In this document: positions 2,138 through 26,834 of the stretch, in pieces
How the letters are laid out: each line of letters opens with the position of its first letter
How positions within the stretch are numbered: position 1 is the stretch's first letter
From: Heptranchias perlo
Taxonomy: Eukaryota
Assembly (NCBI RefSeq): GCF_035084215.1
Contig: NC_090359.1
Span: forward strand, 20,832,001 to 20,896,000
Direction: 5' to 3'
Length of the DNA: 64,000 nucleotides
Notes under the pieces: model-generated
The model's input: only the letters and a program-made list of their open reading frames with translations
Databases searched by the model: none
Told to the model about the DNA's origin: nothing
Program-made: the position numbers and the translations under genes

Positions 2138-4967
2138 CTAGTTGAACTGTGTTTGCTTGTGTTTCCTGTACAGGAACAAGGCGATCAAAGAAGCAGAGAT
2201 CAGAGAGACAGCGCTCACAGTCAGGGCCAAAATCAGGACCACCTCAGACTCCACACCTAAAAAGCAACAAGAAACCAATGGTTAGAGAAGGAAATACTGA
2301 GGGGAAAATGGAAACTAGCAGTCGGCCAACTCACCACCTGGAGACCTCTCCTGCATCCTTTGCTCAACCTCATTAAGGGGCTCAGTTGCCAGGTCTGTCA
2401 CATCAGGATCCAGAATGACCAGGGGTCCAAGTGAGGCCTCACCCTCCCACTTCAATTCAGCATCACTCTCTGCAATATCAAACATTCCAGTTAGAGAGGG
2501 TAAAGGGGGACCTCCAACATAGAGAGGATCAATGTCCTACCAGGTCCAGATACAAGATCCCTCCTTCCTCTGGAATCAAATCGGAATTCCCTCGTGACAC
2601 TGCAGTTGTCCAGATGACAACAGGCACATACATCATTGGTCGATTCTTCCAATGGGGTCCAGCTAAACCAGAGAATCAGTTTATCAACCAGGTTGTGCAT
2701 CACTTCACACAACACATCCCCGTGGGAGAAAGGGAACTTACACATTCTGCATCTTGTGGAAAGTACAAGCTTTGTTCATGGAATCTCTCCGATCCACTGC
2801 AGCAACTTTCAGGTGACAGGTGATGAAAATCTGAGGGACACATTCAATACAAGTTGTTATTCAGTGACTCCCCTCCCAACATGGGGAACCCAATGATCGG
2901 CTTCCTCTTACCAGGGAACGGTCATCTCCAAAGAAACGGAACGCATCCAGGTCAAACTGGAGTTTGTCCAGCTCACGTTCATCTCTGGGCAACACAAAGG
3001 TTGAAAAGGAGTCCTCGGCTTTGCTGTCCAGGAGGCAACTGAAGAGTCAAAAAAAAAGGGCCATGAAGTGAATCAAGTGAAGCCATTGAGAGGAGAGCAG
3101 CTGGAGAAAGCAGAGAGCTCCTTACCCATTGTAGTCAATGATGTTGTATCTTGGGGTGGAATCCTTGTCTGGGCTCAATGTAGCTGCACAGCTGTCAATG
3201 TAGAGCTTCAGGGGCATGTGGTTGGTCATTGAAACAGAGGCCTCAATGTGAATGAGGTCACCCAGGTAGTAGACAGTCGAGGTGCGCTCTGTAAGCCAAT
3301 CATCTGATGAACAAGAGTTGGAGTCAGTGGGTGTAACTCCCATTGGACAACGACAGGAAAGTCCTCCCCGTCCACCCATCACATACCATTCATTAGACGC
3401 AGTGAGAATGACAGAAGCCCTTCTCCAGACTTGGTCGAGCTGAATGGGATCCAGGTGGGCTTGATGGGGTTACTGCTCACATTGCCCTTCCTGGAAAGGA
3501 CAGTGGACTCATTTTAGGATAAGTTCAGAGAACTACAGCAGCTGTAGATCAGATTTGCGACAGAGTAAAGATTCTTACCTCAAATAGTGGCACTGGATGG
3601 GAATGACAGCTCCATTCGTTCTCACAATGACTGATCCACCAGCATTTGGGGTGTGGTTCAGGTGGGTGGTGTAGACCAGGAAATCTCCAGCCATCTGAAA
3701 GACATCAGGTGAAGGAATGAAGAGCTGGTCTCATTGGACAAAAGCTATTTCTGGTCATTTTCCTGCCCTGTTAAGCAGCAGTTTGAGGGGTTTCAGTTGC
3801 TCCCCAATGACACATAATTGAAGCAGCTCCACCATTGAGTGAAGTTGCCTGGAGCAGCCTCTGTTACTCTGCTCAGTCCACCTTCTATTACAGGGGACTT
3901 CAGGCCTGCAGTCAGAAACCCTGAAATGATTTGGCTCGGCCAGGTTAGATGAGAATTCTACCCTATATAGAATAGAGCTTCCACCGTAAGGGGCTTCAAT
4001 TGACCCCTGGGATGGAGCACTAAACACAACATCACTTTTAAACCTCATCTGTGTCCGTGGAATCACGGAGGGGGTCGGCAGGTCTAAGAACCAAAAGTGG
4101 AGTTCCCCTTTAATACATTGTAGCCCAATTATCCCACTAGTTTAGTCTTTCAAGAGAAGTCCCAACAGGTTCGACAACACTGAACATCCATTGACCTGAA
4201 GTTGAGGCAACAGACCAGAATATCCATGAGAAGGAAAAGGATAAATCTACAGAGGCACAAAAGGAAGGACTTGTTTGGGGAAATGTAGGTGAAGGTGCAA
4301 GGCCAATAGAATTGAAAATCAAAGTTAGAGAATAGGAAAGACCAGTTAAAGAAAGTTGTAGAGTCTTGGAGACAAATTAGAATCTTTTAAAGATAAAAGA
4401 AAAGAGACATGTTAACAAAGTAGTTTCACACAGGGCGATAGTTAACATTGCAAGAACCTGTACAGGGATTGGAGGAAGAGTTCAGGGATCTCCTCAAACT
4501 AAGTGGCTGGAGTTTCACCCGATGTTCATGAGTTCAGAGTGAGGAGTAATCTACACAGGGAAATTGGAGCAAGAGTTGAGGAATCACATTACCTGCAATC
4601 TGCTGCCACATTCATGGAGCCCATAGTCAAAGAGGACAGTGTGGTTCTGAGAGTAGATCCCAGTTGGCCGACAACCTGCTGTCCCCAGGGTCAGGTCAGC
4701 AGCTTTAATCAGGTGCCTGGTTCTAAATAAATCCATGTCTACCCTCACCAGGAGGTTCTGCTCTCCACACTGCACCATCACAGTCTGCAGTGGGGACAGA
4801 CTTCTCCCCTCAGACAGGCTGAAATGGGAACCAAAGGGAGGGGCAGGAGTGGCCTTCTCAATGTTCCATGGGAAGTCCCTGTTTCTAAACCGCTGCCAAG
4901 TATCAGAGCAACAAACAGCTCCGACCAAAACCAACAGAGAAACCAAACCCTTCACTAGTTGCCCCAT
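2138..4967 (-). CDS. ZP3: Zona pellucida sperm-binding protein 3-like, copy 1 (9 exons, 454 aa)
   Basis: GT-AG exons 4967-4593, 3694-3579, 3490-3387, 3303-3126, 3038-2912, 2830-2742, 2662-2541, 2469-2335 and 2256-2138 join in frame (1365 nt). Signal peptide; ZP-N (VMVQCGE...DLTLG..GC...LHECGS; IPIQCHY); linker [17 protein letters not shown] ([40 protein letters not shown]); furin site RGRR; external hydrophobic patch [10 protein letters not shown] helix; TAG. Confidence 0.95.
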
Positions 4968-5017
4968 AATACAAACTATTACAGCTCAACTGGGAACTGA
5001 AGGGAGTCACTGATCCC

Positions 5018-23979: not shown

Positions 23980-26834
23980 CTAGTTGAACTGGGTTTGCTT
24001 GTGTTTCCTGTACAGGAACAAGGCGATCAAAGAAGCAGAGATCAGAGAGACAGCGGTCACAGTCAGGGCCAAGATCAGGACCACCTCAGACTCCACACCT
24101 AAAAAGCAACAAGAAACCAATGGTGAGTGAAGGAAATACTGAGGGGAAAATGGAAACGAGCAGTCGGCCAACTCACCACCCGGAGACCTCTCCTGCATCC
24201 TTTGCTCAACCTCATTAAGGGGCTCAGTTGCCAGGTCTGTCACATCAGGATCCAGAATGACCAGGGGTCCAAGTGAGGCCTCACCCTCCCACTTCAATTC
24301 AGCATCACTCTCTGCAATATCAAACATTCCAGTTAGAGGGGGTAAAGGGGGACCTCCAACATAGAGAGGATCAATGTCCTACCAGGTCCAGATACAAGAT
24401 CCCTCCTTCCTCTGGAACCAAATCGGAATTCCCTCGTGGCACTGCAGTTGCCCAGATGACAACAGGCACATATATCATTGGTCGATTCTTCCAATGGGGT
24501 CCAGCTAAACCAGAGAATCAGTTTATCAACCAGGTTGTGCATCACTTCACACAACACATCCCCGTGGGAGAAAGGGAACTTACACATTCTGCATCTTGTG
24601 GAAAGTACAAGCTTTGTTCATGGAATCTCTCCGATCCACTGCAGCAACTTTCAGGTGACAGGTGATGAAAATCTGAGGGACACATTCAATACAAGTTGTT
24701 ATTCAGTGACCTCCTCCCAACATGGGGAACCCAATGATCGGCTTCCTCTTACCAGGGAACGGTCATCTCCAAAGAAACGGAACGCATCCAGGTCAAACTG
24801 GAGTTTGTCCAGCTCACGTTCATCTCTGGGCAACACAAAGGTTGAAAAGGAGTCCTCGGCTTTGCTGTCCAGGAGGCAACTGAAGAGTCAAAAAAAAGGG
24901 CCATGAAGTGAATCAAGTGAAGCCATTGAGAGGAGAGCAGCTGGAGAAAGCAGAGAGCTCCTTACCCATGGTAGTCAATGATGTTGTATCTTGGGGTGGA
25001 ATCCTTGTCTGGGCTCAATGTAGCTGCACAGCTGTCAATGTAGAGCTTCAGGGGCATGTGGTTGGTCATTGAAACAGAGGCCTCAATGTGAATGAGGTCA
25101 CCCAGGTAGTAGACAGTCGAGGTGCGCTCTGTAAGCCAATCATCTGAAGAACAAGAGTTGGAGTCAGTGGGTGTAACTCCCATTGGGCAACGACAGGAAA
25201 GCCCTCCCCGTCCACCCATCACATACCATTCATTAGACGCAGTGAGAATGACAGAAGCCCTTCTCCAGACTTGGTCGAGCTGAATGGGATCCAGGTGGGC
25301 TTGATGGGGTTACTGCTCACATTGCCCTTCCTGGAAAGGACAGTGGAGTCATTTTAGGACAAGTTCAGAGAATGACAGCAGCCGTAGATCAGATTTGCGA
25401 CAGAGTAAAGATTCTTACCTCAAATAGTGGCACTGGATGGGAATGACAGCTCCATTAGTTCTCACAATAACTGATCCACCAGCATTTGGGGTGTGGTTCA
25501 GGTGGGTGGTGTAGACCAGGAAATCTCCAGCCATCTGAAAGACATCAGGTGAAGGAATGAAGAGCTGGTCTCATTGGACAAAAGCTATTTCTGGTCATTT
25601 TCCTGCCCTGTTAAGCAGCAGTTTGAGGGGTTTCAGTTGCTCCCCAATGACACATGATTGAAGCAGCTCCACCATTGAGTGAAGTTGCCTGGAGCAGCCT
25701 CTGTTACTCTGCTCAGTCCACCTTCTATTACAGGGGACTTCAGGCCTGCAGTCAGAAACCCTGAAATGATTTGGCTCGGCCAGGTTAGATGAGAATTCTA
25801 CCCTATATAGAATGGATCTTCCACCGTAAGGGGCTTCAATTGACCCCTGGGATGGAGCACTAAACACAACATCACTTTTAAACCTCATCTGTGTCCGTGG
25901 AATCATGGAGGGGGTCGGCAGGTCTAAGAACCAAAAGTAGAGTTCCCTTTAATACATTGTAGCCCAATTATCCCACGAGTTTAGTCTTTCAAGAGAAGTC
26001 CCAACAGGTTCGACAACACTGAACATCCATTGACCTGAAGTTAAGGCAACAGACCAGAATATCCATGAGAAGGAAAAGGATAAATCTACAGAGGCACAAA
26101 AGGAAGGACTTGTTTGGGGAAATGTAGGTGAAGGTGCAAGGCCAATAGAATTGAAAATCAAAGTTAGAGAATGGGAAAGACCAGTTAAAAGAAAGTTGTA
26201 GTGTCCAGGAGACAAATTAGAATCTTTGTTAAATAAAAGATAAGAGACATGTTAACAAAGTAGTTTCACACTGGGTGTGAGTTAACATGTCAAGAACCTG
26301 TACAGGGATTGGAGGAAGAGTTCAGGGATCTCCTCAAACTAAGTGGCTGGAGTTTCACCCAATGTTAATGAGCTCAGAGTGAGGAGTAATCTACACAGGG
26401 AAATTGGAGCAAGAGTTGAGGAATCACATTACCTGCAATCTGCTGCCACATTCATGGAGCCCATAGTCAAAGAGGACGGTGTGGTTCTGAGAGTAGATCC
26501 CAGTTGGCCGACAACCTGCTGTCCCCAGGGTCAGGTCAGCAGCTTTAATCAGGTGCCTGGTTCCAAATAAATCCATGTCTACCCTCACCAGGAGGTTCTG
26601 CTCTCCACACTGCACCATCACAGTCTGCAGTGGGGACAGACTTCTCCCCTCAGACAGGCTGAAATGGGAACCAGAGGGAGGCCCAGGGGGAGGGACTCTC
26701 TGAGGTCCAGGGGTGGGTTTTACTCTTCTCCATGGAAATCTCTGGTCTCTAAACTGTTGCCAAATATCAGAGCAACAAACAGATCCAACTAACAACAGCA
26801 CTGGGACTAAACCCCTCACCACACAATCCCCCAT
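23980..26834 (-). CDS. ZP3: ZP3-like, copy 4 (9 exons, 463 aa; divergent N-terminus)
   Basis: Exons 26834-26433, 25534-25419, 25330-25227, 25143-24966, 24879-24753, 24672-24584, 24504-24383, 24311-24177, 24098-23980. Starts [28 protein letters not shown]...[12 protein letters not shown]. Confidence 0.93.

What the first reader, a model, noticed from the sequence alone, without database searches (positions are those of the whole stretch)
2541..24504. Exon 7 is a mosaic, non-synonymous hotspot, with a toggled N-glycan sequon
Seen: exon 7 reads ...[16 protein letters not shown] (copy 1), [16 protein letters not shown] (2), [16 protein letters not shown] (3), [16 protein letters not shown] (4). 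By eye, 10 nucleotide sites vary and 9 are non-synonymous, whereas exons 5, 6 and 8 look protein-identical. Within five codons all three two-versus-two splits occur (D/G 1,3|2,4; S/G 1,4|2,3; V/A 1,2|3,4), which no simple duplication tree explains. The N-C-S sequon exists only in copies 1 and 4. Known: mammalian ZP3 exon 7 is the rapidly evolving region just before the furin site, and mouse has a GNCS sequon there. Inference: short-tract gene conversion shuffles variants to build a combinatorial egg-coat repertoire.
Basis: partly seen in the sequence, partly recalled or inferred. Interest (0 to 1): 0.8.

Follow-up and report, generated by a model that had tools for sequence, protein, structure and literature searches.

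The report
Giant shark egg-coat gene family
The four egg-coat (ZP3) genes in this window belong to a shark family of about 150 copies that swap short pieces of DNA and differ most in the protein's short tail; the variable tail is real, but an evolved 'repertoire' with a sugar switch is not shown.

Summary
The context changes the reading. The genome holds at least 157 ZP3 copies (at least 124 on this contig) and at least 83 copies of the filament partner ZP1/4; about 45% of each are broken. Short-tract recombination is real but gene-wide (PHI p=0.001 on introns alone). With 10 or 47 intact copies, exon 7 stays the most amino-acid-variable exon, but its N:S excess vanishes (p 0.0098 to 0.25 and 0.60) and omega is about 1. 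Only the 14 codons between the Cys cluster and the furin site show a 1.5-3-fold excess over neutral. Site-model tests are invalid here: intron pseudo-codons score as high. The sequon is a lineage-specific gain at a CpG, absent from 146 other elasmobranch proteins and as common in pseudogenes (26/46) as in intact genes (28/57). Best reading: a dosage-amplified, birth-and-death egg-coat family scrambled by conversion, with a loosely constrained and probably mildly diversifying C-terminal tail. A selected combinatorial repertoire remains possible but is not shown.

The parts
2138..4967 (-). ZP3 copy 1, 9 exons (4967-4593, 3694-3579, 3490-3387, 3303-3126, 3038-2912, 2830-2742, 2662-2541, 2469-2335, 2256-2138), 454 aa, A-type 5' end
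   Evidence: spliced joints for introns 1 and 3-8 in RNA-like contigs; ZP-N; best PDB hit chicken ZP3
8551..11395 (-). ZP3 copy 2, intact, A-type 5' end; stop codon lost, 6 extra residues
17288..20114 (-). ZP3 copy 3, intact, A-type 5' end
23980..26834 (-). ZP3 copy 4, intact, 463 aa; B-type promoter and first about 52 codons joined to the same gene body (near-identity to the other copies ends at 26681)
2541..2662 (-). exon 7, copy 1 ([13 protein letters not shown])
8972..9093 (-). exon 7, copy 2 ([13 protein letters not shown])
17691..17812 (-). exon 7, copy 3 ([13 protein letters not shown])
24383..24504 (-). exon 7, copy 4 ([13 protein letters not shown])
2575..2616 (-). 14-codon hypervariable tail between the Cys-Cys pair and the furin site, copy 1 (copy 2: 9047-9006; copy 3: 17766-17725; copy 4: 24458-24417)
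2599..2607 (-). N-C-S sequon, copy 1 (copy 4: 24449-24441); the S/G switch is a G/A transition at a C|G codon junction
2560..2571 (-). RGRR consensus furin site, invariant in the 10 close copies
   Evidence: role from bioRxiv 10.1101/2023.06.21.544075 passages
2078..2696 (-). exon 7 to exon 9 block with no fixed difference between the 10-gene clade and the wider family, against 129 upstream and 15 downstream (copy 1 coordinates): a converted block
4968..5060 (-). promoter with E-box (CAGGTG, -80) and TATA box (-57); the B-type promoter has the same elements
   Evidence: motif match only

Best explanation
The four genes are the edge of a very large shark ZP3 family (at least 157 copies), amplified alongside its filament partner ZP1/4 (at least 83 copies, on another chromosome). 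The most likely benefit is supply of egg-envelope protein (inferred). Both families turn over by birth and death, with about 45% broken (shown). Neighbouring copies exchange DNA by ectopic conversion in tracts of tens to hundreds of bases along the whole gene (mosaicism shown; conversion as the mechanism inferred). Purifying selection removes amino-acid variants from the ZP-N/ZP-C core, so the shuffling shows at protein level mainly in the 14 residues that become the mature C-terminus after furin cleavage. That tail tolerates change, gains recurrent mutations (partly at CpG, which created the sequon), and probably carries a mild diversifying push (modest evidence). The sequon is one of these tolerated states, not a shown switch.
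For: Copy counts 150 and 157, controls 0. ZP1/4 count 83, with trefoil, ZP-N and ZP-C. 57 of 103 ZP3 and 25 of 44 ZP1/4 genes intact. PHI p=0.001 in the 10-gene clade, also on introns alone. Four-gamete pairs in introns rise from 9/69 (up to 15 nt) to 53/120 (16-50 nt) to about 0.55 beyond. No fixed difference over about 620 bp of exons 7-9 against 129 upstream. Both A- and B-type N-termini occur in Heterodontus, yet here they sit on near-identical gene bodies. Tail N alleles are 2.0-3.2 times the local neutral rate (p 0.0015-0.010) and 1.5-2.1 times after CpG correction (p 0.04-0.05). The tail is the top-ranked 14-codon window in the 47 wider intact genes. Its frequency spectrum resembles introns (p=0.34), unlike the singleton-rich core. 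Spliced transcripts of the family exist. Catfish amplify ZP3 and ZP4 together, which the authors relate to chorion demand (PMC13704971 Discussion).
Against: No egg-envelope or expression-level data tie copy number to demand; in teleosts that correlation was not significant (rho 0.286, p=0.49). Tail amino-acid diversity in G000 (0.21-0.22; 7-13 times the core) is well above that within other shark sets (0.8-2.6 times). Tail nucleotide diversity exceeds every 42-nt intron window in the wider family. Both could mean stronger selection than I allow. Conversely, tail omega (1.15-1.79) is not significantly above 1, so the mild push may be absent. In the medaka filament an 11-residue ZP3 tail contacts the next subunit, so the tail need not be free.
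Confidence: 0.52

Rival explanations
1. Same family and same conversion, but the tail is simply neutral: relaxed constraint plus local hypermutability (CpG and recurrent transitions) and older variants brought in with the exon 7-9 block; no positive selection.
For: Whole exon 7 N alleles are 0.80-1.18 of the neutral expectation. Omega 0.67-0.94. Synonymous diversity in the tail is as high as non-synonymous in the wider family (0.115 vs 0.111). 2 of 46 intron windows reach the tail's allele count in both sets. Pseudogenes show the same tail diversity and sequon frequency. The same substitutions recur in other sharks: A/V in Heterodontus, G/S in Pristiophorus where there is no Asn.
Against: Excess of N alleles over the local neutral rate in two largely separate gene sets. 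11 of 19 tail N alleles in the wider family are transversions and only 3 are CpG-class. The sequon Asn position has five residues among intact genes (N, D, S, K, T) but is nearly fixed within most other shark sets.
Confidence: 0.3
2. One reading: selection maintains a combinatorial repertoire of ZP3 tails, shuffled by short-tract conversion, with the N-glycan on in about half the subunits, tuning sperm binding, filament packing or microbial attack.
For: 29 distinct tails among 57 intact genes; 8 among the 10 close ones against at most 5 for any core 14-mer; 6 of 8 possible D/G-S/G-V/A haplotypes in 10 genes. Close common sites are more often four-gamete incompatible in exon 7 than elsewhere in the 10-gene clade (13/16 vs 37/108; pairs not independent). 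The sequon is near 50% in both clades by different routes, 5/10 and 23/47. Mammalian exons 6-7 are reported under positive selection (PMC8469249 abstract).
Against: The incompatibility excess is weak or absent in the 47 wider genes (36/135 vs 176/750, p=0.44, for common variants; 52/275 vs 362/2633, p=0.023, for all). The site-model LRT of about 60 is matched by intron controls at 84-85. Sequon 26/46 in pseudogenes. No linkage between tail and ZP-N variants above intron background (p=0.96). No sequon at this site in 146 other elasmobranch proteins. Occupancy and function are untested, and the role of this region in sperm binding is disputed even in mouse.
Confidence: 0.15
3. Assembly artefact: consensus errors or false duplications produce the copies and the mosaic.
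For: 8 of 103 genes have a neighbour under 0.1% different, and some unplaced contigs may be alternate haplotypes.
Against: The closest pair in the 10-gene clade differs by 1.8% and the median nearest neighbour by 0.7%. Variants recur at distant loci and in independent contigs. At least 124 places lie on one contig. Other sharks also have multi-copy ZP3-like clusters.
Confidence: 0.03

Closest known systems
Vertebrate ZP3 (ZPC); chicken ZP3 PDB 3NK3/3NK4, medaka ZP3 8BQU/8RKI
   Same: Signal peptide, ZP-N, ZP-C, the W-x-P...C-x-C-C-x3-N-C cluster, furin site and transmembrane tail.
   Different: Nine exons (the mouse gene has eight); at least 157 copies; chicken has N-C-E, no sequon, at this site.
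Catfish ZP3/ZP4 amplification (PMC13704971; abstract and Discussion read)
   Same: Tandem and segmental co-amplification of ZP3 and ZP4 on two chromosomes, with pseudogenes.
   Different: 39-49 ZP genes in all and 20-22 ZP3, against at least 157 ZP3 and 83 ZP1/4 here; about 45% broken here against about 10%. The parts read do not describe conversion or a variable tail.
Rodent ZP3 putative sperm-binding region, exon 7 (PMC8469249; abstract and passages read)
   Same: Same position between the Cys cluster and the furin site; fast-evolving (between elasmobranch consensus sequences 0.44 vs 0.16 in the core).
   Different: There the variation is between species; here it is between paralogues in one genome. 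There is no Ser-rich stretch. The sequon here is a separate gain (the mouse Asn327 sequon is recalled, not from a call).
Conversion-shuffled multigene families with a hypervariable patch, such as the MHC peptide-binding region (recalled)
   Same: Short-tract mosaicism; raised N and S diversity in one patch.
   Different: Omega above 1 is not established here and no ligand is known.

Membership tests
ZP3 (ZPC) subfamily | ZP-N plus ZP-C module without trefoil or extra N-terminal ZP-N domains | tested here: met
   PF23344 in exon 1; PF00100 matches at family loci; the full translation shows no extra domain
ZP3 (ZPC) subfamily | Closer to ZP3 than to ZP1/2/4; ZP3-type Cys cluster | tested here: met
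   Exon 4: chicken ZP3 68.6 bits, medaka ZP3 61, ZP2 21.9. Exon 7 aligns to the chicken cluster, E=0.38 on its own. 69 of 70 hits are named ZP3-like and one 'zona pellucida domain-containing'.
ZP3 (ZPC) subfamily | Signal peptide, furin site, C-terminal transmembrane segment | tested here: met
   read from the sequence
ZP3 (ZPC) subfamily | Oocyte expression and incorporation into the egg envelope | tested here: inconclusive
   Spliced contigs in runs X5, X7 and X8, but RNA status is a guess, tissue is not on record and copies cannot be told apart; E-box and TATA box present
Gene-conversion (concerted) evolution | Incompatibility among sites that rises with distance, in neutral DNA too | tested here: met
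Gene-conversion (concerted) evolution | Sharp-edged homogenised blocks between old lineages | tested here: met
   exon 7-9 block; A/B 5' ends
Birth-and-death multigene family | Many copies, many pseudogenes, recent duplicates | tested here: met
   46 of 103 broken; 35 of 103 with a neighbour under 0.5%
Selected hypervariable repertoire | dN/dS above 1 in the patch by a test valid under recombination | tested here: inconclusive
   Exon 7: not met (omega 0.67-0.94). Tail: omega 1.15-1.79 not significant; allele counts 1.5-3 times neutral; site model invalidated by control
Selected hypervariable repertoire | Recombination concentrated in the patch | tested here: inconclusive
   higher in the 10-gene clade for common variants, weak or absent in the 47 wider genes
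Selected hypervariable repertoire | Sequon occupied, and variants differ in function | not testable with these tools
   needs glycoproteomics and binding assays

The most novel reading that the evidence does not exclude
A shark builds its egg envelope from dozens of co-expressed ZP3 paralogues whose C-terminal tails, half with and half without an N-glycan site, are kept diverse by selection and reshuffled by conversion: an MHC-like, within-genome repertoire in an egg coat, on a co-amplified ZP1/4 scaffold that has no comparable patch.
Probability: 0.17. Interest if true: 0.82.

Novelty: new variant of a known kind. Interest (0 to 1): 0.5.

Why it matters
ZP amplification is known in teleosts at tens of genes. 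At least 240 ZP3 plus ZP1/4 copies in one shark genome is about five times the catfish total. I found no account of shark ZP3 expansion in my searches (held library only). The family gives about 60 intact natural variants of the region long argued to mediate species-specific sperm binding, on a nearly constant scaffold. That makes the old question of whether ZP3 exon 7 is selected or merely relaxed testable within one genome. It also shows that standard site models give false positives on such families.

Tried and rejected
M1a/M2a site models gave LRT 59-67 on three trees, with exon 7 richest in flagged sites. I rejected this as evidence because intron pseudo-codons gave 85 and 84. The AlphaFold model of a close family member had mean pLDDT 39 and was not used. 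Covariation of tail with ZP-N variants: none above intron background. Private mutations in pseudogenes as a mutability control: counts too small in exon 7 and inflated by misalignment in exon 1 and intron 1. The idea that copy 4 is 5'-truncated was rejected; it has an alternative intact exon 1. A link between a non-LTR element and ZP3 promoters: the query overlapped ZP3 flank and the upstream extraction missed some loci, so no conclusion. No RNA holder is listed on record; contig depth was not used as copy number or expression level. Earlier scan notes: none. No tRNA in the window. No complex prediction was run. Supplements of the catfish and vertebrate ZP papers were not read and may list chondrichthyan gene counts.
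Full report
What is there. The first 27 kb hold four 9-exon ZP3 genes on the minus strand, 97.5-97.6% identical to copy 1. All have GT-AG introns and open frames. Contigs from RNA-like runs join the predicted ends of introns 1 and 3-8 (RNA status is the tool's guess, tissue unknown, copies not separable). Exon 1 carries ZP-N, exon 4 is closest to chicken and medaka ZP3, and the named relatives are shark and ray ZP3-like proteins, so the organism is taken to be a shark. 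Copy 2 reads through its stop by six residues. Copy 4 has a different promoter and first about 52 codons.

Observation. It is exact. 10 of 122 exon-7 sites vary, 9 non-synonymous; exons 5, 6 and 8 are protein-identical; the three splits lie at 2609, 2601 and 2597; N-C-S is in copies 1 and 4. In four copies N:S is 9:1 against 10:15 elsewhere, p=0.0098.

The family. A 23-mer at the exon 7/intron 7 junction occurs 150 times and a 32-mer in exon 4 157 times in G000, with reversed controls at 0. By hand count of the listed places at least 124 lie on contig C38 between 9.1 and 20.9 Mb, at a median spacing of 80 kb in the main block. I aligned 103 of these: the 99 listed exact junction matches on C38 and 4 on unplaced contigs; one mis-framed fetch, L106, was dropped. 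57 are intact and 46 broken. The window's four and six genes about 400 kb away form a star-like clade (K, 10 genes, all intact) apart from the other 93 (W; 47 intact). A genome search with PF00100 (150 of 434 candidates scored) showed a second large family on C23, C1594 and C49: trefoil plus ZP module, best hit choriogenin H, 83 copies by pattern, 25 of 44 sampled intact, with no exon above 0.105 amino-acid diversity and 0.034 in the exon before the furin site. This is the ZP1/4-type partner with which ZP3 forms filaments (bioRxiv 10.1101/2023.06.21.544075, passages). Some unplaced copies may be alternate haplotypes.

Mosaicism is real and gene-wide. All three splits occur in introns too. PHI gives p=0.001 for K, also on introns alone, and 0.003 for W; the four window copies alone give 0.24. 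In K introns four-gamete pairs rise from 9/69 at up to 15 nt to 53/120 at 16-50 nt and about 0.55 beyond, as expected for short tracts. Exon 7 is more incompatible than the rest for common variants in K (13/16 vs 37/108; all variants 18/40 vs 72/220, p=0.15), and not clearly so in W (p=0.44 for common variants, 0.023 for all). Two larger exchanges are visible. K and W differ at 129 fixed sites from exon 1 to intron 6 and at 15 downstream, but at none in 2696-2078; introns 7 and 8 have 0 of 146 against 113 of 1267 elsewhere (p=1e-6), and the K branch shrinks from 0.097 to 0.013. K stays monophyletic there, so this was an early block transfer, after which 8 of 14 variable exon-7 sites in K are still shared with W. 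Second, both 5' types seen in K exist in Heterodontus (P0015, P0001), yet here they sit on bodies about 2% apart. The genes were chosen by an exact match to 23 bases inside the block, which cannot explain 620 bases.

Is exon 7 under selection? It stays the top exon for non-synonymous diversity (K 0.049 vs 0.010; W 0.053 vs 0.019), and its N density exceeds the other exons (p=0.001 and 0.002). But synonymous diversity rises too (0.040, 0.080), the N:S contrast falls to p=0.25 and 0.60, N density is 0.95-1.4 times neutral, and omega is 0.67 or 0.94 depending on the tree. Site models looked decisive (LRT 59-67) until intron pseudo-codons gave 84-85, so they are void here. The signal that remains is in the 14 codons from the Cys-Cys pair to the furin site. 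Distinct N alleles there are 8/30 sites in K and 20/30 in W, 3.2 and 2.0 times the neutral rate inside the same block (p=0.010 and 0.006). With CpG-aware rates the ratios are 2.1 and 1.5 (p=0.04 and 0.047), and this window ranks first in W. Against that, 2 of 46 intron windows reach the same counts, tail omega of 1.15-1.79 is not significant, tail synonymous diversity in W equals the non-synonymous, the frequency spectrum matches introns, and the window was suggested by the K data, which share variants with W. Among 146 of 168 fetched proteins from other elasmobranchs (left out: most fragments, bacterially labelled records, two thinly sampled species and five clusters that may be the same organism), the tail is the fastest part between species (0.44 vs 0.16) but only 0.8-2.6 times the core within sets, against 7-13 times in G000 (those sets are biased by 90% clustering and gene models).

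The sequon. None of those 146 proteins has N-x-S/T at this site (10 unmapped; mostly N-C-G), and chicken has N-C-E. The Ser is therefore a gain in this lineage, by a G-to-A change at a CpG; the opposite-strand product TGT-GGT is also present, and the same G/S change recurs in Pristiophorus behind Asp, where it makes no sequon. Asp before it occurs as both GAC in K and GAT in W, which suggests two origins. In W the sequon is lost mainly by Asn to Ser, Lys or Thr. It is present in 28 of 57 intact genes and 26 of 46 pseudogenes; three other sequons are fixed in all 57. The likeness to mouse is best read as convergence (mouse Asn327 is recalled; the paper read confirms SNSSSS at 329-334 and an invariant 328).

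Mechanism. Shown: amplification of both subunits, birth and death, gene-wide short-range mosaicism, a homogenised exon 7-9 block, purifying selection on the core, high diversity in the tail. Inferred: dosage as the reason for amplification (argued for catfish, with a non-significant correlation to chorion thickness; PMC13704971 Discussion); conversion as the process; furin cleavage leaving the tail as the mature C-terminus, which in medaka contacts the next ZP3 subunit. I give 0.52 to dosage plus conversion plus a relaxed, mildly diversifying tail; 0.30 to a wholly neutral tail; 0.15 to a selected repertoire; 0.03 to artefact.

Literature. Eight searches (listings only unless named). Read: PMC8469249 abstract and passages; PMC13704971 abstract and Discussion; passages of PMC6262864, PMC8455134, PMC8830517 and the bioRxiv paper; PMC13361971 term search with no hit for shark or conversion. 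None of what I saw describes shark ZP3 expansion, though public annotation already lists many ZP3-like genes in several sharks. No supplements were read.

Verdict. Observation confirmed, interpretation partly supported. The surprise is the scale of the co-amplified ZP3 and ZP1/4 families rather than the exon-7 mosaic. New variant of a known kind; interest 0.5.

Noticed in passing
G000:C23:1.77-30.2 Mb, C1594, C49 (L146-L148, L154-L196): At least 83 copies of a trefoil-ZP (ZP1/ZP4-type) gene; 25 of 44 sampled are intact.
   Followed up: yes
G000:C31:30.81-30.88 Mb, C5:51.28-51.57 Mb, C32:7.34-7.52 Mb, C45:15.3-15.4 Mb, C38:19.93 Mb: Smaller arrays or single ZP-C matches; those tested on C31 and C5 hit ZP2 slightly better than choriogenin H. 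Subfamilies not settled.
   Followed up: partly
L138:5910-6633 (just before window base 1) and L140:3192-3915: Partial ZP3 copies with promoter and exon 1 only, at the end of both tandem clusters.
   Followed up: partly
window 26681-26834 and L032, L034, L035: Two old promoter and signal-peptide types (A, B) on near-identical gene bodies; both types also occur in Heterodontus, and A in Pristiophorus.
   Followed up: partly
exon 6, window 2830-2742: The 10-gene clade keeps a 9-nt stretch that the wider family has deleted; other sharks have it.
   Followed up: partly
window 8569-8551; L032, L049, L077: Stop-codon loss in four intact ZP3 genes (TCG in three, CAG in one); three ZP1/4 genes also lack the usual stop.
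   Followed up: no
exon 1 codons 85, 91, 109, 114 (copy-4 numbering): Common amino-acid polymorphisms in ZP-N, several shared by both clades; no linkage to the tail above background.
   Followed up: partly
L133:2128-8071; window 27516-28195 and short pieces near 5400-5600, 11800-12000, 20500-20750: Non-LTR retroelement with endonuclease and reverse-transcriptase domains between ZP3 copies, with fragments upstream of the window's genes.
   Followed up: partly
window 6500-6648, 12908-13114, 21645-22066; 32219-33642; 41868-52857; 54036-55524; 60297-64000: Minisatellites: 27-bp unit varying in copy number between gene spacers; 67-bp; 39-bp x279; 24/29-bp; 45-bp x82.
   Followed up: no
P0004, P0155: Shark-like ZP3 proteins labelled Salmonella and Aeromonas in the protein collection, probably contamination or mislabelling.
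   Followed up: no
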